Positions 1-30,448 of a DNA stretch of 32,000 nucleotides are shown here, piece by piece; positions within the stretch are counted from its first letter, which is position 1, and each line of letters opens with the position of its first letter. This stretch comes from Nanobdellota archaeon (GTDB lineage: Archaea; Nanobdellota; Nanobdellia; Nanobdellales; Nanobdellaceae). The translations under genes and the position numbers were made by a program. The notes under the pieces were generated by a model that was not told where the DNA came from, searched no databases, and saw nothing but the letters and a program-made list of their open reading frames with translations. The stretch is taken from positions 240,001-272,000 of the forward strand of contig AP031373.1 of the NCBI GenBank assembly GCA_042850255.1, in the 5' to 3' direction.

Positions 1-704
1 AATGCTAACCAATATTCTGTTAATGTATATACCTGAGGATGTAATACTTTTTTAGATCCAGTCAATAATCTTGCCTTTATTGCATTATCAGATATTATAC
101 TAATTAATTGCACCTTTAATTCTTCAAACGTATGTTGTTTTACATCTGTATCATCAATTACTACATATACATCTACATCAGAAGATTCAACACTTCTTCC
201 TTTAACTTGTGATCCTGCCAATACATATGCAACCACATATTTTTGTAATAGATCAATTATTAATTTTTTATGAACTGATGTTAATTTTATTATTTCTATA
301 AATCCTTTATCATATAATACATCTCCCAAGGCTAATAAATCAATTAATTCAAATCTGGAATCCATTGAAATATTTTTTATATCTTCTATTAATAATACAT
401 GTAACCATACGTCTAGTTTATTATTTCTTATTATATCTAAATATTTAGATATAAAATCTGTCTTTAATTTTACCTTTTCTTCAGGTTTTAAATCAAAATC
501 AGATAATATAACTATTAAATGTTTATATGTTTCTATTTCTCTTTTATATTTTTCAAATACATCTTCTTCCAATATAATATTACTATAATACATTAATCCT
601 TTTAATAATTCCAATATATTTTCCTTTTTTTCTCTAAATTCTACTATAGATAATACTCTATCCTTATATTCGCTATTTAATATATCATCCTTCAAATTTA
701 CCAT
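1..704 (-). CDS. Nucleotidyltransferase (Pol-beta superfamily) domain protein; N-terminus in the window, C-terminus runs off the left edge
   Basis: Own translation of the reverse strand from ATG (cat at 702-704): MVNLKDDILNSEYKDR...YVLAGSQVKGRSVESSDVDVYVVIDD... The G-S-x(n)-D-x-D signature is typical of minimal nucleotidyltransferases. The frame stays open to position 1. It is absent from the ORF track, presumably because it is truncated. Confidence 0.6.
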   Translation of the reverse strand, partial: MVNLKDDILNSEYKDRVLSIVEFREKKENILELLKGLMYYSNIILEEDVFEKYKREIETYKHLIVILSDFDLKPEEKVKLKTDFISKYLDIIRNNKLDVWLHVLLIEDIKNISMDSRFELIDLLALGDVLYDKGFIEIIKLTSVHKKLIIDLLQKYVVAYVLAGSQVKGRSVESSDVDVYVVIDDTDVKQHTFEELKVQLISIISDNAIKARLLTGSKKVLHPQVYTLTEYWLA

Positions 705-2588: not shown

Positions 2589-4074
<1,486 letters not shown>

Positions 4075-4083
4075 TAGTTTTAA

Positions 4084-4132: not shown

Positions 4133-5341
4133 ATGTTCGAAATAAAGTATAGAGATGGAGCTGGAAGAATTGGAATTTTAAAATATAAAAATAAAAAAAT
4201 AGAGACACCAATTTTATTACCAGTAATAAATCCTTATAAACAAACTTTATCTATAGAAGATATAAAAAAATATAATGTAAAAGCTATAATGACCAATTCT
4301 TATATCTTATATAGAAAAAAATTCTATGGAGATATTCATAATTTTCTAAATTTTGATGGTATAATAGAAACAGATTCTGGATCATATCAAATACTACATT
4401 ATAAAAAAGATATTGAAGTATCAAATGTAGAAATAATAAAATATCAAATAGAAATAAATTCCGATATAATAAATGTATTAGATTTGCCCACTGATATAGA
4501 TAAAAGTAAAGATGAAGCAGAAAAAGAATTATATATAACAATTGATAGGATAAAAGAAGGTATAGAAAACAAAGGAGATAAATTAATTAATGGAGCAATA
4601 CAGGGAGGAATATATATAGATTTAAGAAAAAAAGCTGCAGAAATTGTTAAAAATTTAAATGTAGATATATTTGCAATAGGTACTATTGTGCCTTATATGA
4701 TAAATTATAAGTTTGATAAACTATTTGAATTAATTATAGAACCAAAGATTTTATTACCATTTAATAAACCTGTCCATTTATTTGGAATGGGTCATACATT
4801 AACATTACCTTTAAGTATATATATAGGAGGCGATATATTTGATTCTGCTTCTTATATATTATTTGCAAAAGATAAGAGAATAATAACACCATATGGAACT
4901 TTTAGATTAGAAGAAGCAAAAAATATGTATTTAGAAACAAAAAATAAGTTATATCATATTGAAGAATTAAAAGATTTTAATAATAATGATTTAATAAAAT
5001 TAATTGCAGAACATAATCTATATACATTATTAAAGGAAATAGAAATAATAAAAGATGCTATAAAAAACCAATATTTAACAGATTTGGTTTTAATAAAAGC
5101 GCATACTCATTATTCTATATATAAAGCTACTAAATATATATTAGAAAAATATTATAATTATTTAAAGCATTTAGAACCAGTAAGAAAAAGATCTGGTATA
5201 TTTTATGGAGGAGAATTAAATGAAATAAGAATAGATGTAAAAAGGGCTTTAGAAAGGTTAAATGAAAGAGTAGATAAAAAAGATATTGAATATTTATATG
5301 ATTATATTTATCCATTTAATTCTTTAAGAAATATAAAATGA
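4133..5341 (+). CDS. tgtA: Archaeosine tRNA-guanine transglycosylase, catalytic domain only (402 aa)
   Basis: The sequence begins MFEIKYRDGAGRIG...ETP.L.PV and contains TNSYILY, ETDSGSYQ, the GIYIDLR region, LFGMGH, DIFDSASY and AEHNLY, all typical of the TGT family. It is shorter than the ~580-aa archaeal enzymes. Confidence 0.85.
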   Translation: MFEIKYRDGAGRIGILKYKNKKIETPILLPVINPYKQTLSIEDIKKYNVKAIMTNSYILYRKKFYGDIHNFLNFDGIIETDSGSYQILHYKKDIEVSNVEIIKYQIEINSDIINVLDLPTDIDKSKDEAEKELYITIDRIKEGIENKGDKLINGAIQGGIYIDLRKKAAEIVKNLNVDIFAIGTIVPYMINYKFDKLFELIIEPKILLPFNKPVHLFGMGHTLTLPLSIYIGGDIFDSASYILFAKDKRIITPYGTFRLEEAKNMYLETKNKLYHIEELKDFNNNDLIKLIAEHNLYTLLKEIEIIKDAIKNQYLTDLVLIKAHTHYSIYKATKYILEKYYNYLKHLEPVRKRSGIFYGGELNEIRIDVKRALERLNERVDKKDIEYLYDYIYPFNSLRNIK

Positions 5342-10029: not shown

Positions 10030-10053
10030 GGGGTCTAGGAGGTATATAGTCTC
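10030..10053 (-). other. 3'-flank strand of the 23S processing helix
   Basis: AGGAGGTATATAGTCTC (10037-10053) is the exact reverse complement of 12964-12980. GGGG at 10030-10033 faces CCCC(C) at 12986-12990. Confidence 0.65.
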
Positions 10054-12963
<2,910 letters not shown>

Positions 12964-12990
12964 GAGACTATATACCTCCTTTCATCCCCC
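12964..12990 (-). other. 5'-flank strand of the 23S processing helix
   Basis: GAGACTATATACCTCCT (12964-12980) pairs with 10037-10053. Confidence 0.65.
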
Positions 12991-13084: not shown

Positions 13085-14779
13085 GTGTCTTTTACAATTA
13101 TGAACAAAAATAACAAGAAAAAAGAGGAGGATTTCTCTGAATGGTATAATTGGATTGTAAGAGAAACAAATATTATAGATGATAGATACCCCGTTAAGGG
13201 TATGCCTGTATACTTTTCCTATGGTTATATAATGATAAGAAATATTCTAAGAGCTTTAGAAGATGAATTAGATAAAAATGGATTTGAACCTTATTGGTTT
13301 CCTGTTCTAATACCATATGATATTTTTAAAAAAGAATCAGAACATATAAAAGGATTTGAAAAAGAAGTTTTTTATGTAACACCAGCAAAACCTATTGAAG
13401 AAGAAAAAAATTTAATTTATATATTAAGACCAACATCAGAAACCGAAATGTATTATATGTTTTCATTATGGATAAAATCCCATAGAGATTTACCATTATT
13501 AACTTATATGACAAATACTGTATATAGATATGAAACAAAAGCTACAAAACCATTAATGAGGGGAAGAGAAATATTATGGAATGAAGCACATACTGTACAT
13601 AAAGATATTGATGATGCTCAAAGAATGATTAAGAAATCTATGGAAATTTATTCAAAAATATTTTGGGATTTATTATCTGTACCACATATATGGGTGATGA
13701 GACCTAGTTGGGATAAATTTGCAGGTGCAGATTATACTTATGCTGCAGATACTATAATGCCTGATGGAAGATTTTTACAAATTGGTACTACTCATTTATT
13801 AGGTAGAAATTTCTCAAAAGCCTTTAATATAATTTTTGAAGATGAACATCCTTTTATAAAAATTGATAAAAATAAATTTGAAGCTTTTGATGAAAAAGGA
13901 AATAAATATGAAATAGAAATATATGAAAATAAAATTAAAATTTTGTATTATGAAAATAATGAAATAAAACATATATATGAATCTGATATAAAGTTTAATG
14001 GAGAAATATCTGAGGATAACAGAGAATTAATAAACTTATTACATGAGAAAATAAAAGAATTTTTTGGAGAAGTAAAATTAAAAAAAGAAAAATTTGTATG
14101 GCAAACATCTTTTGGAATAGCTATGAGAACCTTAGCTGCAGTAATATCTATACATGGTGATGATAAAGGTCTAATATTACCATTTTACATTGCTCCAATT
14201 CAAATAATAATAATTCCAATATATTATTCTGAAGAAGAAAAAAATAAAGTATTAGAATTCTGTGAAAAAATATATAATAAATTAAAAGATAAATATAGAG
14301 TAAAAATTGATAAAGATGATACAAAAAGTCCTGGATGGAAATTTAATCAATATGAAATGTTAGGAGTACCAATTAGGATTTCTATAGGAAAAAAGGAAAT
14401 TGAAGATAATTATATAACAGTATCCGTTAGAAAATTCAATGAAAAATCTCAAAGTTATTATATAGAACTTGAAAAAATTGATGATGAATTGGAGAATATA
14501 ATAGAAAATTATGAAAAAGAATTAAAAGAGAGGGCAAAAAAATATTTTGAAAGCAAAATAATAAAAACAGAAAAAATAGAAGATATAGAAAAAAATATTG
14601 ATAAAGGAGTAGTATTTAAGGTACCTTTCTGTATGAGAGAAGAATGCGCAGATAATATTAAGAAAAAATATAATATGGAAGTAAGAGGAACTGATATAGA
14701 ACCTGAAATATCTTCAGGAAAATGCATATTTTGCAATAATGAAGCAAAATATTATGTATATTTAGGTAGATCTTACTAG
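13085..14779 (+). CDS. proS: Prolyl-tRNA synthetase (archaeal/eukaryote-like class IIa) with an internal ~80-aa insertion
   Basis: Motifs include FSEWYNWIV...DRYPVKG, LRPTSET, YRYE, GREILWNEAHT, QIGTTHLLGRNFSKAF, WQTSFG, HGDDKGLILP, and a C-terminal Zn-like FCMREEC...CIFCN. The track start at 13085 is GTG; an ATG at 13100 (MNKNN...) is an alternative start. Confidence 0.9.
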   Translation: MSFTIMNKNNKKKEEDFSEWYNWIVRETNIIDDRYPVKGMPVYFSYGYIMIRNILRALEDELDKNGFEPYWFPVLIPYDIFKKESEHIKGFEKEVFYVTPAKPIEEEKNLIYILRPTSETEMYYMFSLWIKSHRDLPLLTYMTNTVYRYETKATKPLMRGREILWNEAHTVHKDIDDAQRMIKKSMEIYSKIFWDLLSVPHIWVMRPSWDKFAGADYTYAADTIMPDGRFLQIGTTHLLGRNFSKAFNIIFEDEHPFIKIDKNKFEAFDEKGNKYEIEIYENKIKILYYENNEIKHIYESDIKFNGEISEDNRELINLLHEKIKEFFGEVKLKKEKFVWQTSFGIAMRTLAAVISIHGDDKGLILPFYIAPIQIIIIPIYYSEEEKNKVLEFCEKIYNKLKDKYRVKIDKDDTKSPGWKFNQYEMLGVPIRISIGKKEIEDNYITVSVRKFNEKSQSYYIELEKIDDELENIIENYEKELKERAKKYFESKIIKTEKIEDIEKNIDKGVVFKVPFCMREECADNIKKKYNMEVRGTDIEPEISSGKCIFCNNEAKYYVYLGRSY

Positions 14780-15011
14780 GTGGCCGTAGGCCACTTTTAG
14801 TATATATTTTTCTTAGCGGATAACCTTGTGCCGTTAGGACACATTTCTCAAGGTGCATACCATCTCTCCAGGTTTGTCCGGAGTTGCCTCCGAACATTTA
14901 CCCTTCATCTTCATCAATGGTATGTCCTATATTTCTTTTTGTGTTGCCAGGGATTTCTCCCTCCGGATTAACCCGGTAACTTTACGGCAAGTGGACCTTC
15001 CCACGGCCACC
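14779..15011 (-). ncRNA. 233-nt structured RNA of unresolved class; SRP/7S RNA is the default guess but is not demonstrated
   Basis: GC-enriched island in AT-rich DNA. The termini pair over 9 bp (GGTGGCCGT 14779-14787 with ACGGCCACC 15003-15011). Read on the minus strand there are two GNRA-capped hairpins (GGGA-GAAA-UCCC at 14950-14961; GUUCGGAG-GCAA-CUCCGGAC at 14876-14895) and further long-range complementarity. A TATA-like TTATATAT sits at 15033-15040, which is -29 to -22 from the 15011 end. The ORFs predicted across it have rRNA-like junk composition. Confidence 0.6.
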
Positions 15012-15043
15012 TTTTTTATTTTTATCTTTCAAATATATAAGTT

Positions 15044-15205
15044 ATGCCAGAACAACAAACTCCATTATTTACCTATTTAGGATTATATAAATTTGGGAAA
15101 GAAAAATCAAAAATAAAATTAAATAGAAGAAATTTAATAATAATGGTAATTATTTTTGCGGCTTTAGTATATTTAGGAAATTTCCTATTATCATGTCTAG
15201 TCTAA
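15044..15205 (+). CDS. Small tail-anchored membrane protein, probable Sec61-beta (archaeal SecG) homologue (53 aa)
   Basis: Own translation: MPEQQTPLFTYLGLYKFGKEKSKIKLNRRNLIIMVIIFAALVYLGNFLLSCLV. It follows the GL.(R/K)(Y/F)...KI(K/R)(L/V) pattern and ends with a single C-terminal TM, resembling archaeal Sec-beta as I recall it. It falls below the ORF-track cutoff. Confidence 0.4.
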   Translation: MPEQQTPLFTYLGLYKFGKEKSKIKLNRRNLIIMVIIFAALVYLGNFLLSCLV

Positions 15206-15642: not shown

Positions 15643-16397
15643 TGGCAAAAGTTATAACAATTTCTTCAGGAAAGGGAGGAGTTGGAAAAACATTTTTTTC
15701 AATAAATCTATCTAAAGCATTATCTTTACTAGATTTTAGAGTATTATTAATTGATTTCAATTTAACTACTCCAAATGTATCAATTAATTTAGGTCTTGGA
15801 AATGAAAAATATAATATACATAAATTTTTGAGAGGAGAGACAAGTATAATAAAATGTATTAAAAAATATGAAGATAATTTTTATATAATACCAGGAAGTT
15901 TGAACGTAGAAGATATAATAAATATATCTACAGAAAGATTACATGATGGTATATTTACAGTCTACAATAATTATGATTATATAATTATTGATTCTGCTGC
16001 AGGAATTGGAAAAGAAGCTACAGAAGCTTTGAAAAGTGCAGAAGAGGTTATAATTGTAACTAATTATGAAAAGTCATCATTAGTAGATGCTTACAGATTA
16101 ATAAAAGTTCTAAATAAATTAGATATAAATATATTGGGAATTGTTATAAATAAAGTAAGGAAAAGAATAGATTATGTAAAATTAGAAAGCTTTTTAGGAA
16201 AAGAAATAATAGGTATTATACATTATGATGAAAATGTACAAAAATCTATGGATAGTGGTATACCATTATTAGATTATAATATTAATTCTGTAGCATCTAA
16301 GGATATATTAGATATAGCTAGGAAAATTAGTGGAAGAGAATTTAAAGAAAAGGAAAATATATTAAGTAATATATTAAAAATATTTAGATGGAGATAG
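15642..16397 (+). CDS. MinD/ParA-family P-loop ATPase
   Basis: A deviant Walker A (SSGKGGVGKTFFSINLS) is followed by LIDFNL and the IIIDSAAG Walker B-like segment. Confidence 0.85.
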   Translation: MAKVITISSGKGGVGKTFFSINLSKALSLLDFRVLLIDFNLTTPNVSINLGLGNEKYNIHKFLRGETSIIKCIKKYEDNFYIIPGSLNVEDIINISTERLHDGIFTVYNNYDYIIIDSAAGIGKEATEALKSAEEVIIVTNYEKSSLVDAYRLIKVLNKLDINILGIVINKVRKRIDYVKLESFLGKEIIGIIHYDENVQKSMDSGIPLLDYNINSVASKDILDIARKISGREFKEKENILSNILKIFRWR

Positions 16398-16657
16398 ACT
16401 TTGAATTAGATAAAATATATGAAGCATTAGAGAAGAAAAAATATAAAAAAATATTATTACAATTACCAGATGGTTTAAAACCATATTCAAAGGAGATATA
16501 TGATAAAATAAAGGAAAAATATAAAGATCTAGAAATATATATATGGTTTGGAACAGACTTTGGTGGTTGCGACATACCAATATATTTGGATAAATATGGT
16601 TTTGATTTAATAATACATTTTGGACATGATAAATTCTATAAATTAAAACTAGAATGA
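16388..16657 (+). CDS. dph2: Diphthamide synthesis Dph2-like protein, N-terminal fragment only (89 aa)
   Basis: KKILLQLPDGLKPYSKEIYDKI...IWFGTDFGGCDIPIYLDKYGFDLIIHFGH matches the first ~95 residues of archaeal Dph2 (LQ.PEGL ... GACD ... DALIHLGH). The ORF then stops, and nothing downstream continues the homology. Confidence 0.6.
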   Translation: MEIDFELDKIYEALEKKKYKKILLQLPDGLKPYSKEIYDKIKEKYKDLEIYIWFGTDFGGCDIPIYLDKYGFDLIIHFGHDKFYKLKLE

Positions 16658-26412: not shown

Positions 26413-26487
26413 TGCCCCCACCGGGATTTGAACCCGGGTCTCGGGGATGAGGACCCCGTATCCTAGACCTGACTAGACGATGGGGGC
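26413..26487 (-). tRNA. tRNA-Glu (anticodon CUC), contiguous, no intron, CCA not encoded
   Basis: Reverse complement: GCCCCCA-TC-GTCT-AGTCAGGTCTA-GGAT-A-CGGGG-TCCTCAT-CCCCG-AGAC-CCGGG-TTCAAAT-CCCGG-TGGGGGC-A. This folds as a cloverleaf with a 7-bp acceptor stem, a T-loop TTCAAAT, and CTC at positions 34-36. Confidence 0.9.
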
Positions 26488-26540
26488 TATGGTAATTTTA
26501 TTATATAAATTAAAAAATCTATAGAATTATTAAAATATAT

Positions 26541-29243
26541 TTAAATACTATGGTTTTTTACTTTCATATATTTATTTTCTTCTTTGATAGCTATAGGAAC
26601 AAGATATCCAGATACTTTTCCTTCTGGTATCCTCCATTCCCCAAATGCTTCTAAATAATGTGTTCCTCTAAACGATCCCAGATGATTAGTTTTGTCATCG
26701 CGCGCATCGTATGGTATCCCCATTGGTCCTATTATATTTAATTCTACTTCCGATTCTGAAAATCCATATTTTTCTCTTAATTTTTGTAAGAAATATAATG
26801 GAGCATTGTTAAGAGGTTTTGTATTAAATAATACATAATCTACATTTAATTTCCTTGCATAATCTATTATTAATTCGTAAACTTTTCCCCAATTCTTATT
26901 AAACCATTTTTCACTATCTGGGAAAAATAGTTTTGATCCCATCTCTACAGAATCTATTAACCAATATTTACTACCTTCAGAATCTTTTGCTATATATCCT
27001 ATTATTATTCCATCAATCTTTCCTTTTTTTCTGATAGAATTTATATCTACTTTATCAGTTACTGCAAATCCCATATAAACAATCCTTGGGTCTAAAACAT
27101 ATAATACACTTCCTAGACCATTCAAGAATCCTGGATTATTATCATCTATAGCTGGTAAATGAGAACAAGATCCTGTAGATTCCCAACTAAACATCATTGT
27201 AGGAAATCTTCCTGTAAATGCTACTACATATTTTCCTCCATCTACTTTTCCACTTTTTATACTAGAAACTGTAGTTAATATATCCATAAAACTTTCCAAT
27301 CCTTTTTTATTTTTACCTATATATTTTGTTCCTATTTCAGATAACCTTTTTATTATTTCTTCATAGTTTCCATTTTTCAATAATTCTATTAGTTCTTTAG
27401 TTTTTGGTTTTATTTCTTTTGGTAAAGACTGATAGAATCCTTTTGCATTATCTAATTTTTCTTTCCCTACTATTTTTTCTAAATAACTATTTCCCCATTC
27501 TACATTTTTAGGATCTCTAGATCCAATAAAGGAATAAAATAAAGCTTTAACAGTATCTTCATATGAGATATTTATCTCTTCTCCATCGTTATTCCAAATC
27601 TTCCATATCTTTTCTTTTAATGCTTCAATATTTATTCCTTCTTTTTGCATAATAGATAATATTTCCCTTATTTTTTCATCATTCCAATAGTTATAAAGGA
27701 CTTTAGCTGCATTTATTAATGTTTCTTTTCTTCCCTCATCTATAAGATACTTTAAAGAAAAGGCCAAATTTAAACTTTCTTTTATAGTATATTTAGATAG
27801 AGATAGTCCTGTTTTTTCTTCTAAATTATGAATTATTTTATTATAATTTATAGGACCATCTTCTAAATCAAAGTTGACACCTAAGTTATATTCTATTAAG
27901 TATTTTAATTCTAATTTTTCTATTTGAGTATCCAAATTATCTTTTGTATTTTTTATATATTTTATAACATCTAGTTTATTATCCCACATTAGTCTATTTA
28001 AGATATAAATATTCATACCAGCCTTTGTCAAATTAACAAATTCTTTTGGTACATCTTTCTCTAAAGCTAATAAAGAACTTATGATGAACACTAAAGCTGA
28101 TGATATATCTTTATCTAATAAATCTAATACTATGTTTTTGTATTGCTCAAATTGGTTATTTTTCATAAATTCTATAGAACTTTTTACGAAATATTCTATA
28201 TCAAGATTAGATATAGCTTTTTCTGATACTTTAGATAAAGCTAATATAAATTCTTCAGAAAGATAGTAGTTTAATACTTTATTTTCTATTGCTGATTCTA
28301 TATATCCTATATAAGTTTTTAATACTTCTATATTTTTGTTTAATAAATCTGATGCTTTGTCTATATAATCTTCCAATCTATTTCTATCGTATTTTAATAT
28401 TTTTAATATACTATCTGCAAACAATTTGGCGATATTTTTATCTTTTTCAAAAATTTCTAGATACTTATTTATAAATTCTTTATATATGATTCTCTTCTTA
28501 TCTATTGTATAGTCTATAGATTTTATCGCATTAGATACATCTGATAAAGATTTTGTGATTATATAAATATTATCTATATTTTCCTCTTTTTTTGCTAATT
28601 CTAATATAACATTTCTGTAGGTGTTCTCTTTTATTTCTTTTTCTAGTTCTAAAATATTTTTAATATTCTTTAAAAAGTTCGATAAAGATTGTCTGTCTTT
28701 AGTTCTTGTCCAGAGATTTATAACTAGATCTTTATATTCTTCAAACTTCCTAGTTTTCATAAATTCTATAGAAGTTTCTATAAAATAATTAGGTACTCCA
28801 TCATATTTTTGAATTAACTCTGCCAAAGTATTCAAAAACTCTGACCAAAGTCTTTTGTTTTCTTTAAATATATGTTTCCCATACTCAAAAGCTAATGATA
28901 CACTAGAAATAAATTCGTTTAACTTTTCTTTATTTTCATCTTTTATCGTTATTACTTGGTCTAAATATGGAGAAAATAAATTTTCTTTTATAAGCATTAA
29001 AGAGTTTCTTACAAATTTTTCTGCAATTTTTGTATCTTTTTTTGTTAATTCTATTAAATCATCTAATCTTAATGAAAATATATTCTCAAATTGATATTCA
29101 GTATATATTCTCATATTTATGGCCTCTTTAGCATATTTTCTAAATATCCTCGCAGCATCGCGATTTTTTCTATAGAGTACTATAGACTTAATATAAGAGT
29201 CTAAATAGCATACACTCTTATAGGCAATATCTTTAAGCTTCAT
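26541..29243 (-). CDS. Large (900 aa) orphan protein: N-terminal helical region with an internal duplication, and a C-terminal alpha/beta domain with GNAT-like features (speculative)
   Basis: Uninterrupted 2.7-kb ORF with no N-terminal hydrophobic segment. NYFIETSIEFMKTRKFEEYKDLVINL (aa 152-177) repeats as EYFVKSSIEFMKNNQFEQYKNIVLDL (aa 350-375). The C-terminal WGKVYELIIDYARKLNVDYVLFNTKPLNNAPLYFLQKLREKYGF resembles the alpha3-beta5-alpha4 part of acetyltransferase folds. Confidence 0.65.
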   Translation of the reverse strand: MKLKDIAYKSVCYLDSYIKSIVLYRKNRDAARIFRKYAKEAINMRIYTEYQFENIFSLRLDDLIELTKKDTKIAEKFVRNSLMLIKENLFSPYLDQVITIKDENKEKLNEFISSVSLAFEYGKHIFKENKRLWSEFLNTLAELIQKYDGVPNYFIETSIEFMKTRKFEEYKDLVINLWTRTKDRQSLSNFLKNIKNILELEKEIKENTYRNVILELAKKEENIDNIYIITKSLSDVSNAIKSIDYTIDKKRIIYKEFINKYLEIFEKDKNIAKLFADSILKILKYDRNRLEDYIDKASDLLNKNIEVLKTYIGYIESAIENKVLNYYLSEEFILALSKVSEKAISNLDIEYFVKSSIEFMKNNQFEQYKNIVLDLLDKDISSALVFIISSLLALEKDVPKEFVNLTKAGMNIYILNRLMWDNKLDVIKYIKNTKDNLDTQIEKLELKYLIEYNLGVNFDLEDGPINYNKIIHNLEEKTGLSLSKYTIKESLNLAFSLKYLIDEGRKETLINAAKVLYNYWNDEKIREILSIMQKEGINIEALKEKIWKIWNNDGEEINISYEDTVKALFYSFIGSRDPKNVEWGNSYLEKIVGKEKLDNAKGFYQSLPKEIKPKTKELIELLKNGNYEEIIKRLSEIGTKYIGKNKKGLESFMDILTTVSSIKSGKVDGGKYVVAFTGRFPTMMFSWESTGSCSHLPAIDDNNPGFLNGLGSVLYVLDPRIVYMGFAVTDKVDINSIRKKGKIDGIIIGYIAKDSEGSKYWLIDSVEMGSKLFFPDSEKWFNKNWGKVYELIIDYARKLNVDYVLFNTKPLNNAPLYFLQKLREKYGFSESEVELNIIGPMGIPYDARDDKTNHLGSFRGTHYLEAFGEWRIPEGKVSGYLVPIAIKEENKYMKVKNHSI

Positions 29244-29448: not shown

Positions 29449-29733
29449 CTATGGACCGCTTAAAATATATTCTGAACTATTTGTTATAACTATTATGTTT
29501 GTTCCATTATAATAACAGATTATATTTTCTTGTAGGCATAAATTATAATAAGTTTGATTTATTAAAAATGAATAATTTGGATATAATAATAATTTAACAT
29601 AAAAATCTTCTGCAATATATTTAGCAATATTTGGTTGGTAATAAAAGTTATTTTGCAATAAGGATAAGTAATATATTGTTATAAAAACTATTAAGACTAA
29701 ATATAATAAAATAAATTGAGATCTCATTTCCAA
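29449..29733 (-). CDS. Small N-terminally anchored, sequon-rich extracellular protein (pilin-like paralogue A, 94 aa)
   Basis: MEMRSQFILLYLVLIVFITIYY is a single N-terminal hydrophobic helix after a basic residue. There are four N-x-S/T sequons (NYS, NQT, NGT, NSS) and a CYYNG motif shared with paralogue C. Confidence 0.6.
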   Translation of the reverse strand: MEMRSQFILLYLVLIVFITIYYLSLLQNNFYYQPNIAKYIAEDFYVKLLLYPNYSFLINQTYYNLCLQENIICYYNGTNIIVITNSSEYILSGP

Positions 29734-30068
29734 TAAATATTTACATAATCTATTGAGCCATTGATAATATAAAACTCTTCTATACCTTGTGTTGCATTTG
29801 AAAGGGGCATATTATTAAATACTGTGATATTATTTATTTCTACATAATAATATGGGAATATATTTGTAACTATTTCATATAATGTTTGATTCAATTGTAT
29901 TGTATTATTTAAATCTAAATAATTTATTGAAATTAATGATGCCAATAAATCTTCCTTTACATATCCTCTCAAATATAGAGTATTATAATAATTTGTTGTT
30001 AATAAAAAATAAAGTATTATTATTGTAATTACTAATTCAAAAAATATTGTTATACTAAATGTTCTCAT
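29724..30068 (-). CDS. Small N-terminally anchored, sequon-rich extracellular protein (pilin-like paralogue B, 114 aa)
   Basis: MRTFSITIFFELVITIIILYF is the N-terminal helix, with an FFEL motif. There are five sequons (NNT, NQT, NIT, NAT, NGS). The gene overlaps both neighbours. Confidence 0.6.
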   Translation of the reverse strand: MRTFSITIFFELVITIIILYFLLTTNYYNTLYLRGYVKEDLLASLISINYLDLNNTIQLNQTLYEIVTNIFPYYYVEINNITVFNNMPLSNATQGIEEFYIINGSIDYVNIYWK

Positions 30069-30448
30069 GATATTAATACTTCTACTAAATATAAATTACC
30101 TTGATAATAACAAACTCTCCTAAATTCTATATAATTATTACTTACATTTTCTCCAAATGTTAATATTTCTCCATTATTTAAATTTTCATATATTATTTCA
30201 TATGGTCTACTTATATTTAAATTATCTAAAATGTTGGAATTAAAATCATTAGATGTTAAATTACATATAGGATTGGCATACTGTTCTGTTATTTCCTTCA
30301 TTATTATTCTTCCATCCATAAATTCATTAAAAAAATTTTCATATTTTGTATTTATAACATATATACTAGCAACCTTTTCCATAAGTAATAAAGTAATGAA
30401 AAATATTACAACAACGATTACTAATAATTCAAAAAATCTATCTAGCAT
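30065..30448 (-). CDS. Small N-terminally anchored, sequon-rich extracellular protein (pilin-like paralogue C, 127 aa)
   Basis: MLDRFFELLVIVVVIFFITLLL is the N-terminal helix, with an FFEL motif. There are three sequons (NLT, NIS, NVS), two Cys residues and a CYYQG motif. Confidence 0.6.
   Translation of the reverse strand: MLDRFFELLVIVVVIFFITLLLMEKVASIYVINTKYENFFNEFMDGRIIMKEITEQYANPICNLTSNDFNSNILDNLNISRPYEIIYENLNNGEILTFGENVSNNYIEFRRVCYYQGNLYLVEVLIS

What the first reader, a model, noticed from the sequence alone, without database searches (positions are those of the whole stretch)
14779..15011. 233-nt GC-rich structured RNA of unresolved class between proS and a Sec61-beta-like ORF
**Seen in the sequence**
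- In this genome every other GC-rich island is an rRNA or tRNA, so this island is almost certainly a structural RNA.
- The two ends pair over 9 bp (GGUGGCCGU with ACGGCCACC).
- Read on the minus strand there are two perfect GNRA-capped hairpins. One is GGGA-GAAA-UCCC (14950-14961). The other is an 8-bp stem, GUUCGGAG-GCAA-CUCCGGAC (14876-14895).
- The second stem contains a U-G pair that would be an A-C mismatch on the plus strand, which supports a minus-strand transcript.
- Nested long-range helices also fit the minus-strand reading. CUUGCCGU (14984-14991) pairs with ACGG-CA-CAAG (14824-14833). AGGACAUA (14921-14928) pairs with UGUGUCCU (14836-14843).
- A UGAUGA element lies at 14911-14916.
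- A TATA-like box sits at -29 to -22 from the 15011 end. This is about the spacing seen upstream of the tRNA-Glu, which suggests transcription starts at the first paired G.

**What it could be (inference)**
- The rod-like fold with paired 5' and 3' ends is reminiscent of archaeal SRP (7S) RNA.
- However, I cannot find the near-invariant helix-8 GGAA/AGCA signature in the expected order. The closest match is CCGGA-GGGAGAAAUCCC-UGGCAAC near the 5' end, which would imply an unusual or permuted arrangement.
- Segments AAAGUUACCGGG and GGACAAACCUGG resemble RNase P CR-I and CR-V, and their CCGGGUU and AACCUGG cores are complementary. But the AAG/CUU half of P4 does not covary, and that pairing crosses another strong helix.
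- It is therefore either a divergent or miniaturised member of a known class, or a new RNA.
Basis: partly seen in the sequence, partly recalled or inferred. Interest (0 to 1): 0.78.

Follow-up and report, generated by a model that had tools for sequence, protein, structure and literature searches.

The report
Minimal RNase P RNA lacking P2–P3
This GC-rich island is the gene for the RNA subunit of RNase P, the enzyme that trims transfer-RNA precursors, in a tiny symbiotic archaeon; the class is ordinary, but this version lacks two helices (P2 and P3) that, as far as I know, other cellular versions keep.

Summary
Window 14778-15012 (minus strand) is the RNase P RNA gene of Nanobdellota archaeon YN1. 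Rfam's archaeal RNase P model matches it end to end at 85.5 bits, just above the gathering score of 84 (E 1.6e-22). No SRP or other family comes close. The same 231-241 nt RNA lies between proS and a 53-aa ORF in 16 Nanopusillaceae-type genomes.

On a 15-sequence alignment, 64 proposed pairs are 96.9% paired and 47 show compensatory changes. Slid controls give 32-44%. RNAalifold recovers essentially the same fold on its own.

All five conserved regions (CR-I to CR-V) are present. So are P1, P4 with its bulged U, P5, P7-P12, two GNRA loops and a double K-turn-like module.

P2, P3 and P16/P17/P6 are absent in every homolog. P4 is therefore a simple nested helix, not a pseudoknot. P15 is a short hairpin.

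The SRP idea, the CR-I/CR-V assignment and two of the long-range helices are wrong.

The gene was already reported for Nst1 in 2013 as "short, not foldable". The P2/P3-less architecture appears undescribed, so this is a new variant of a known kind. Expression, activity and the set of protein subunits were not tested.

The parts
14778..15012 (-). RNase P RNA gene (235 nt); RNA index i = 15013 - window coordinate
   Evidence: RF00373 match at 85.5 bits (gathering score 84), E 1.6e-22, model positions 1-288. Homologs in 16 genomes.
15034..15041 (-). TATA-like box CTTATATA, -29 to -22 from the first paired A (15012)
   Evidence: A (C/T)TTATATA box is conserved upstream of all 15 aligned homologs, 21-39 nt from P1. 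Promoter function is inferred.
15004..15012 (-). P1, 5' strand (idx 1-9)
   Evidence: Pairs with 14778-14786. The inner 7 bp are 100% paired across homologs, with compensatory changes.
14778..14786 (-). P1, 3' strand (idx 227-235); overlaps the proS stop codon by 2 nt
14991..15002 (-). CR-I with the P4 5' strand AGG(U)CCAC (idx 15-22; bulged U18 = 14995). Only U10 separates P1 from CR-I, so there is no P2 5' strand and no P3
   Evidence: The CM alignment deletes model positions 10-34. P4 has 7 pairs, 100% paired, 3 with compensatory changes. RNAalifold predicts P4 on its own.
14786..14800 (-). CR-V ACUAAAAGUGGCCUA with the P4 3' strand GUGGCCU (idx 219-225 = 14794-14788)
   Evidence: AUAUAUAC-AAA-G is invariant or nearly so in 15 sequences.
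14986..14989 (-). P5, 5' strand (idx 24-27), pairs with 14829-14832
   Evidence: 4 pairs, 100% paired, 3 compensatory.
14977..14980 (-). P7, 5' strand (idx 33-36), pairs with 14833-14836
   Evidence: 4 pairs, all with compensatory changes.
14963..14976 (-). P8 hairpin (idx 37-50)
   Evidence: 5 pairs, 4 compensatory.
14949..14962 (-). P9 hairpin with GAAA (GNRA) loop (idx 51-64)
   Evidence: 5 pairs, 100% paired, 4 compensatory.
14940..14948 (-). P10/11, 5' strand (idx 65-66 and 70-73), pairs with 14837-14843
Evidence: 6 pairs, 100% paired, 3 compensatory.
14928..14939 (-). CR-II (J11/12, AAAAAGAAAUAU), T-loop region
   Evidence: Aligned to the model's CR-II at high posterior probability. AGAAA is conserved. 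T-loop geometry is inferred.
14852..14927 (-). P12 arm: proximal stem (idx 86-97 / 149-161), internal loop, P12.1 (110-112 / 141-143), P12.2 hairpin (118-137) with GCAA loop
   Evidence: 22 pairs; 19 have compensatory changes.
14904..14915 (-). Tandem GAUGAA-GAUGAA (idx 98-109) facing GGAGA (idx 144-148 = 14865-14869): double K-turn-like module, presumed L7Ae site
   Evidence: Nearly invariant. Nanobdella replaces G101.A148 and A102.G147 by A-U and A-U. L096 reads UGAAGA. It matches the KT2/KT3 description in PMC5499556. Protein binding is inferred.
14844..14851 (-). CR-III (UUGAGAAA, idx 162-169)
   Evidence: YUUGAGAA conserved.
14812..14828 (-). CR-IV: 3-nt J5/15 linker CAA (idx 185-187), P15 stub GG-UUAU-CC (188-195), CGCUAAG
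   Evidence: P15 is 2 bp here but 5 bp in L086 (CUCCC-GAAA-GGGAG) and L096 (UUCGG-GUAU-CCGAA). The model's 41-nt P15-17 insert is 4 nt here.

Best explanation
This is the RNase P RNA (RPR) gene of Nanobdellota archaeon YN1. It is probably transcribed from the minus strand, from a TATA-like box about 25 nt upstream.

The RNA keeps everything thought to do the work:
- the P1/P4/P5 stack, with CR-I, CR-IV and CR-V around the bulged-U P4 (the catalytic centre);
- the 3-nt J5/15 linker (the A-anchor);
- the P7-P10 cruciform;
- CR-II and CR-III (the T-loop anchor for the tRNA elbow);
- a long P12 arm with a double K-turn-like module (the L7Ae site).

It most likely removes 5' leaders from pre-tRNAs as a ribonucleoprotein.

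It differs from the described archaeal types A, M and T in having no P2 and no P3. P1 runs straight into CR-I, so P4 is a nested helix rather than a pseudoknot. Like type M, it also has nothing beyond a short P15 hairpin: no L15, P16, P17 or P6.

Shown here: family match, fold, covariation and conservation. Inferred: transcription start, protein partners and catalysis.
For: **Family match**
- Full-length RF00373 match above the gathering score on the minus strand only. All five conserved regions align.
- Relatives score 63.9-91.3 bits.

**Conservation and fold**
- 16 distinct homologs, 231-241 nt, 65-87% identical, always convergent with proS. ProRS identity in these genomes falls as low as 56%.
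- 64 pairs are 96.9% paired and 47 have compensatory changes. No shuffle out of 500 reaches this. Slid controls give 32-44%.
- RNAalifold finds essentially the same fold on its own: 65 pairs, 48 compensatory.
- P4 changes CCAC/GUGG to CCGC/GCGG to CUGC/GCAG, and AGG/CCU to AAG/CUU.
- P1 and CR-I are separated by one nucleotide in every homolog.

**Literature**
- Nst1 has an RPR plus the proteins p21, p29 and p30 (PMC3655853).
- In the M. jannaschii enzyme, Rpp30 contacts P2-P3 and Pop5 holds CR-IV (PMC6565675).
- POP5 was not detected in Nst1 (PMC4919917).
Against: - The score is only 1.5 bits above the gathering threshold.
- There are no expression or activity data.
- No RNase P protein gene lies in the window.
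- P15 is only 2 bp in YN1.
- CR-I departs from the consensus (UGGGAAGG versus GAGGAAAG).
- Podar et al. read the Nst1 RNA as partial degradation.
- A second, canonical RPR elsewhere in the 773-kb genome could not be excluded, because only 32 kb were available.
Confidence: 0.85

Rival explanations
1. It is a decaying relic of RNase P RNA, on the way to the complete loss seen in Nanoarchaeum equitans. It is still transcribed but no longer the tRNA 5'-processing catalyst.
For: - N. equitans has no RNase P, and Podar et al. described the Nst1 complex as partially degraded.
- POP5 was not detected in Nst1.
- P2/P3 and P16/17 are gone.
- No hit was found in the N. equitans proS locus.
Against: - A relic would not keep 96.9% pairing with 47 compensated pairs, nor invariant CR-I to CR-V, over 65% sequence identity and 16 genomes.
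- The upstream TATA-like box is also conserved.
- The losses are clean removals of whole peripheral modules, identical in all homologs, not scattered damage.
Confidence: 0.08
2. It is a canonical RNase P RNA whose P2/P3 exist but were missed. They could lie outside the called ends, or be supplied by a second RNA.
For: By my recollection, P2 and P3 are part of the accepted universal core. The transcript ends were not mapped.
Against: - Only 31 nt separate the RNA from the start codon of the divergent ORF, and that stretch holds the TATA-like box.
- P2 needs a 5' strand between P1 and CR-I, where there is a single U in all homologs.
- The 3' J15/4 segment is A/U-only, with no complementary partner.
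Confidence: 0.03
3. It is an archaeal SRP (7S) RNA or an unknown class of structured RNA.
For: A rod-like overall fold with paired ends.
Against: - No SRP family hit even at E <= 10.
- A full-length RNase P match with all conserved regions.
- The rod-like look is explained by P4 becoming nested once P2 is lost.
Confidence: 0.01

Closest known systems
RNase P RNA of Nanobsidianus stetteri Nst1 (Podar et al. 2013, PMC3655853)
   Same: It is the orthologous gene. L003/L017 carry it in the same proS position, 76.6% identical.
   Different: [quoted passage not shown] Here it is about 235 nt and folds into a covariation-supported RNase P core that lacks only P2, P3 and the elements beyond P15.
Type M archaeal RNase P RNA, especially the P8-containing variant of Archaeoglobus profundus, A. 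veneficus and Ferroglobus (PMC3579882)
   Same: No L15, P16, P17 or P6. A short P15 hairpin. A full S-domain with P8, P9, P10/11 and a long P12 carrying a double K-turn.
   Different: Type M keeps P2 and P3 and the P4 pseudoknot topology. In M. jannaschii, Rpp30 binds P2-P3. Both helices are absent here.
Type A archaeal RNase P RNA (consensus of Rfam RF00373)
   Same: CR-I to CR-V, P1, P4, P5, P7-P12, a GNRA L9 and a GNRA-capped P12.
   Different: It lacks P2, P3, L15, P16, P17 and P6. About 68 model-aligned positions are missing.
Type T RNase P RNA of Thermoproteaceae (RF02357)
   Same: It is another naturally minimised archaeal RPR from a thermophile, and it correlates with loss of one protein subunit.
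   Different: The pattern is opposite. Type T keeps the C-domain, including a 3-bp P2 and P3, and loses most of the S-domain together with Rpp21. Here the S-domain is intact and the C-domain periphery is lost.
Highly reduced mitochondrial RNase P RNAs of budding yeasts (from memory, not checked here)
   Same: As I recall, they are the only other RPRs described without P2/P3, keeping P1 and P4.
   Different: They are organellar, extremely AU-rich, and also lack most of the S-domain. The present RNA comes from a cellular organism and keeps a complete S-domain.

Membership tests
Archaeal RNase P RNA (Rfam RF00373, clan CL00002) | Full-length covariance-model match at or above the curated gathering score | tested here: met
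   85.5 bits against 84, E 1.6e-22, model 1-288, minus strand. Orthologs score 86.6, 91.3, 71 and 63.9 bits, so two fall below the threshold.
Archaeal RNase P RNA (Rfam RF00373, clan CL00002) | P4 helix formed by CR-I and CR-V, with a bulged U | tested here: met
   AGG(U)CCAC / GUGGCCU. 7 pairs, 100% paired in 15 sequences, 3 with compensatory changes. Predicted de novo. The topology is nested, not a pseudoknot.
Archaeal RNase P RNA (Rfam RF00373, clan CL00002) | CR-II and CR-III between P10/11 and P12 (T-loop anchor) | tested here: met
   Aligned at high posterior probability. AGAAA and UUGAGAA are conserved in all homologs. The three-dimensional T-loop fold was not testable.
Archaeal RNase P RNA (Rfam RF00373, clan CL00002) | CR-IV with a 3-nt P5/P15 linker and a P15 helix | tested here: met
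   Linker CAA. P15 is 2 bp in YN1 and 5 bp, with different sequences, in L086 and L096.
Archaeal RNase P RNA (Rfam RF00373, clan CL00002) | P2 and P3 helices between P1 and CR-I | tested here: not met
   Model positions 10-34 and the six positions of the P2 3' strand are deleted. One nucleotide separates P1 from CR-I in all 16 homologs.
Archaeal RNase P RNA (Rfam RF00373, clan CL00002) | P1 closing helix and the P5/P7-P8-P9-P10 cruciform with a GNRA L9 | tested here: met
   All helices are 88.9-100% paired, with compensatory changes.
Archaeal RNase P RNA (Rfam RF00373, clan CL00002) | K-turn(s) in the P12 extension that bind L7Ae | tested here: inconclusive
   A conserved GAUGAA-GAUGAA repeat faces GGAGA. 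The G.A positions switch to A-U pairs in Nanobdella. This fits the double K-turn description, but the geometry and L7Ae binding were not tested.
Archaeal RNase P RNA (Rfam RF00373, clan CL00002) | Mg2+-dependent cleavage of pre-tRNA 5' leaders | not testable with these tools
   Needs biochemistry.
Archaeal RNase P RNA (Rfam RF00373, clan CL00002) | Genome encodes RNase P proteins (Rpp21, Rpp29, Rpp30, Pop5, L7Ae) | not tested
   None lies in the 32-kb window. The literature reports p21, p29, p30 and L7Ae, but not POP5, for Nst1.
Type M archaeal RNase P RNA | Lacks L15, P16, P17 and P6; P15 is a simple hairpin | tested here: met
   The model's 41-nt insert is reduced to 4 nt. P15 hairpins are seen in L086 and L096.
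Type M archaeal RNase P RNA | C-domain made of P1, P2, P3, P4, P5 and P15 (PMC6565675) | tested here: not met
   P2 and P3 are absent.
Type T RNase P RNA (RF02357) | S-domain largely missing (no P11/P12) | tested here: not met
   P10/11, P12, CR-II and CR-III are all present and covary.
Archaeal SRP RNA (RF01857) | Covariance-model match, with the helix 8 and helix 5 motifs | tested here: not met
   No SRP family match at E <= 10 on either strand.

The most novel reading that the evidence does not exclude
Nanopusillaceae-type archaea (YN1, Nanopusillus, Nanobsidianus, Nanobdella) use a fourth architectural type of archaeal RNase P RNA. In this type the P2-P3 stack has been lost entirely, so the catalytic P4 helix is nested rather than a pseudoknot. 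The loss has co-evolved with a changed C-domain protein set: POP5 undetected and RPP30 divergent. The particle is nevertheless the active tRNA 5'-processing enzyme in vivo. This would be a natural experiment showing that P2-P3 and the pseudoknot topology are dispensable for a cellular RNase P.
Probability: 0.55. Interest if true: 0.65.

Novelty: new variant of a known kind. Interest (0 to 1): 0.5.

Why it matters
- **Classification.** By my recollection, P2 and P3 belong to the accepted universal core of RNase P RNA. In the M. jannaschii enzyme they are the docking site of Rpp30 and help form its dimer. A 2026 paper still lists only types A, M and T.
- **A testable model.** A conserved RPR without P2/P3 comes from three cultivable co-culture systems: YN1, N. 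acidilobi and N. aerobiophila. It offers a small (about 235 nt), pseudoknot-free, thermostable model for asking what the minimal C-domain is. It also lets one ask how proteins compensate for lost RNA.
- **An intermediate stage.** It fits between a full RNase P and the total loss seen in N. equitans.
- **Annotation.** Nst1 (71 bits) and Nanobdella (63.9 bits) fall below the Rfam gathering score. Threshold-based annotation pipelines would probably miss this essential gene in those genomes.

Tried and rejected
- **SRP RNA and other Rfam families.** Only noise above E of about 2.
Tested one at a time and rejected on covariation.
- **More distant ProRS loci.** Nanoclepta L004, L016, L087-L091 and N. 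equitans L018 have lost the synteny and hold no RPR. They say nothing about those genomes as a whole.
- **The 149-aa neighbour as a second anchor.** Only 14 relatives, all from the same clade. It yielded one new divergent homolog, L096.
- **RNase P proteins.** Not found among the window's ORFs. The contig downstream of S3 was too short and does not continue into an L29-Rpp29 cluster.
- **tRNA genes in the fetched loci.** Wanted in order to test for leaderless tRNAs; none present.
- **A custom covariance model.** Not built.
- **The bacterial promoter/terminator scan.** Not used, because it does not apply to archaea.
Full report
**What is there**

The window is an AT-rich archaeal genome, about 22% GC. 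Its GC-rich islands are the 16S rRNA (2589-4081, plus strand), the 23S rRNA (10043-12974, minus strand), tRNA-Glu (26413-26487, minus strand) and the island in question.

The flanking ProRS is 100% identical to a protein on a 773,326-bp contig of a 'Nanoarchaeota archaeon'. A neighbouring ORF is annotated YN1_2890.

**Class**

A scan of all 4227 Rfam families gives one hit over the island. It is RF00373, archaeal RNase P, on the minus strand at 14778-15012. The score is 85.5 bits against a gathering score of 84, E is 1.6e-22, and the match covers model positions 1-288. With permissive filters on 14600-15200, nothing else scores better than E of about 2, and no SRP family appears.

**Conservation**

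The same RNA lies just downstream of proS, convergent with it, and upstream of a 52-55-aa ORF. This holds in:
- Nanopusillaceae MAGs;
- two Nanobsidianus stetteri assemblies, including Nst1;
- Nanopusillus acidilobi;
- five Nanopusillus MAGs;
- Nanobdella aerobiophila MJ1;
- three more divergent contigs (L085, L086, L096).

That makes 16 distinct sequences, 231-241 nt long and 65-87% identical to the window. ProRS identity in these genomes falls as low as 56%. Rfam scores for relatives range from 63.9 bits (Nanobdella) and 71 bits (Nst1) to 91.3 bits, so some fall below the gathering score.

**Fold**

I took the helices from the Rfam alignment and added P4 by inspection. On the 15-sequence alignment A1:
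- the 64 pairs are 96.9% paired;
- 47 pairs show compensatory double changes;
- no shuffle out of 500 reaches the observed values;
- sliding the 3' partners by 1-3 columns drops pairing to 32-44%.

RNAalifold, run without any input structure, returns essentially the same fold: 65 pairs, 48 of them compensated.

The helices are listed below (RNA index i = 15013 - window coordinate).

| Helix | Positions | Note |
|---|---|---|
| P1 | 1-9 / 227-235 | inner 7 bp conserved |
| P4 | 15-17, 19-22 / 219-225 | bulged U18 |
| P5 | 24-27 / 181-184 | |
| P7 | 33-36 / 177-180 | |
| P8 | 37-41 / 46-50 | |
| P9 | 51-55 / 60-64 | GAAA loop |
| P10/11 | 65-66, 70-73 / 170-173, 175-176 | |
| P12 | 86-97 / 149-161 | |
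| P12.1 | 110-112 / 141-143 | |
| P12.2 | 118-125 / 130-137 | GCAA loop |
| P15 | 188-189 / 194-195 | short |

P4 covaries visibly. CCAC/GUGG becomes CCGC/GCGG and then CUGC/GCAG. AGG/CCU becomes the textbook AAG/CUU in two lineages. P15 has only two pairs in YN1. It is a 5-bp hairpin with unrelated sequences in L086 (CUCCC-GAAA-GGGAG) and L096 (UUCGG-GUAU-CCGAA).

Both strands fold well, with z-scores of -6.5 and -6.1. The strand therefore rests on the covariance-model match and on 39 G-U against about 10 A-C cells.

**What is kept**

All five universal conserved regions are present.

| Region | Sequence | Window coordinates |
|---|---|---|
| CR-I | GGGAAGGUCCAC | 15002-14991 |
| CR-II | AAAAAGAAAUAU | 14939-14928 |
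| CR-III | UUGAGAAA | 14851-14844 |
| CR-IV | CAA linker + P15 + CGCUAAG | 14828-14812 |
| CR-V | ACUAAAAGUGGCCUA | 14800-14786 |

The internal loop of P12 carries a nearly invariant GAUGAA-GAUGAA repeat that faces GGAGA. In Nanobdella, the positions I pair as G101.A148 and A102.G147 both become A-U. In L096 the opposite strand reads UGAAGA, the G-A-N-G-A pattern expected for two overlapping K-turns. This matches the KT2/KT3 'double K-turn' that binds two L7Ae copies in euryarchaeal RPRs (PMC5499556). The exact geometry here is my inference.

**What is missing**

In the Rfam alignment three parts of the model are deleted or shrunk:
- positions 10-34, which are the P2 5' strand and the P3 hairpin;
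- the six positions of the P2 3' strand;
- the 41-nt P15-P16-P17 insert, reduced to 4 nt.

In every homolog a single nucleotide separates P1 from CR-I. Upstream there are only 31 nt before the start codon of the divergent ORF, and the TATA-like box occupies them. There is no room for P2 or P3.

Without P2, P4 no longer crosses any helix. It is simply nested inside P1. It also explains why plain folding programs find P4 here.

From established knowledge of RNase P structures, P1/P4/P5 form one coaxial stack and P2/P3 form a separate one. Removing P2/P3 therefore leaves the catalytic stack intact.

**Comparison with known types**

A 2026 paper still lists three archaeal types, A, M and T (PMC13462272).
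- **Type M** lacks L15, P16, P17 and P6. Some Archaeoglobales variants of it keep P8 (PMC3579882). Apart from P2-P3, that is the pattern seen here.
- **Type T** is the mirror image. It keeps the C-domain, including a 3-bp P2, and loses the S-domain and Rpp21.

In the M. jannaschii cryo-EM structure, Rpp30 contacts P2-P3 of both RNAs in the dimer, and Pop5 holds CR-IV (PMC6565675).

For Nst1, Podar et al. (2013) found the RPR with Infernal, together with p21, p29 and a divergent p30. They called the RNA too short to fold typically and read this as partial degradation. Samanta et al. (2016) found no POP5 in Nst1 and guessed that the C-domain had been remodelled. The fold derived here makes that guess concrete: the remodelling is the loss of P2-P3 and of everything beyond P15.

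I found no paper in the held library that describes this architecture. That is an absence in one library, not proof of novelty.

**How it most likely works**

Shown here:
- family membership;
- a covariation-supported fold;
- conservation of every conserved region;
- a conserved upstream (C/T)TTATATA box at -29 to -22 from 15012.

Inferred:
- transcription starts at about 15012 or 15011;
- Rpp21-Rpp29-L7Ae assemble on the S-domain and the P12 K-turns;
- the tRNA elbow is held by the CR-II/III T-loops, and the first acceptor base pair by the J5/15 linker;
- hydrolysis takes place at the P4, CR-I and CR-V centre;
- the contact between Rpp30 and P2-P3, and probably the dimer, is lost or replaced.

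The main rival is a non-functional relic. It is hard to square with compensated pairs in every helix across 16 genomes.

**Limits**

- There are no expression or activity data.
- Only 32 kb of the genome were visible, so a second RPR and the protein inventory could not be checked.
- No RNase P protein gene lies in the window.
- The metagenome scan failed, so the alignment is limited to one family-level clade.
- More distant relatives have lost the synteny.
- The only tRNA available, tRNA-Glu, has a TATA-like box at -22 to -15 from its mature 5' end. That is too close for the usual spacing. Whether tRNAs in this organism carry leaders stays open.

**Verdict**

- The gene is not new.
- Its P2/P3-less, pseudoknot-free architecture is, as far as I can find, an undescribed variant. 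It will interest RNase P specialists and can be tested in three cultured systems.

Noticed in passing
window 2589-4081 (+) and 10043-12974 (-): The 16S and 23S rRNA genes are unlinked and on opposite strands. About 6 kb of protein genes lie between them: an archaeosine TGT-like gene, ribosomal protein S19, two T2SSF-like membrane proteins and a T2SSE/FlaI-like ATPase. No 5S rRNA is nearby.
   Followed up: partly
window 16388-16657 (+): An 89-aa ORF matches only the first 57 positions of the 302-position diphthamide-synthesis (Dph2) profile. It is conserved as a separate small gene in all syntenic relatives. This fits the split DPH2 gene reported for Nst1.
   Followed up: partly
window 26488-26560 (-), upstream of tRNA-Glu(CUC): A TTTATATA box lies only 15-22 nt upstream of the mature tRNA 5' end, 7 nt closer than the box upstream of the RNase P RNA. 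A second AT-rich box lies at about -59 to -52. Whether this tRNA is made with a leader, without one, or from the distal box is unknown. The answer bears on how much RNase P is needed.
   Followed up: partly
window 13085-14779 (+): The ProRS is 564 aa, against about 480 aa in most archaeal homologs. Those homologs align to it over only about 43% of its length in the best segment, which suggests a clade-specific insertion of about 80 aa in the middle. Its stop codon overlaps the 3' end of the RNase P RNA by 2 nt.
   Followed up: no
The 149-aa ORF overlapping its end has only 14 relatives among 5.8 billion proteins, all from this clade, and no Pfam domain.
   Followed up: partly
L003/L017 (Nst1) 4181-4418; L013 (Nanobdella aerobiophila) 4170-4400: The orthologous RNase P RNAs score 71 and 63.9 bits, below the Rfam gathering score of 84. 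Threshold-based annotation would probably leave the gene unannotated in these genomes.
   Followed up: yes
window 26541-29243 (-) and 29449-30448 (-): A 900-aa ORF and three consecutive small ORFs (93, 113 and 126 aa) next to the L22/S3 genes have no Pfam match at E <= 0.01.
   Followed up: no
A1 columns 42-46 with 147-151 (RNA idx 37-41 with 141-145): The P8 5' strand CCGRG is also complementary to CYYGG at the 3' side of P12.1. One position changes in step (A-U in 9 sequences, G-C in 5). This pairing is mutually exclusive with P8 and P12.1, both of which are better supported. It could reflect a single shared lineage split or an alternative conformer.
   Followed up: partly
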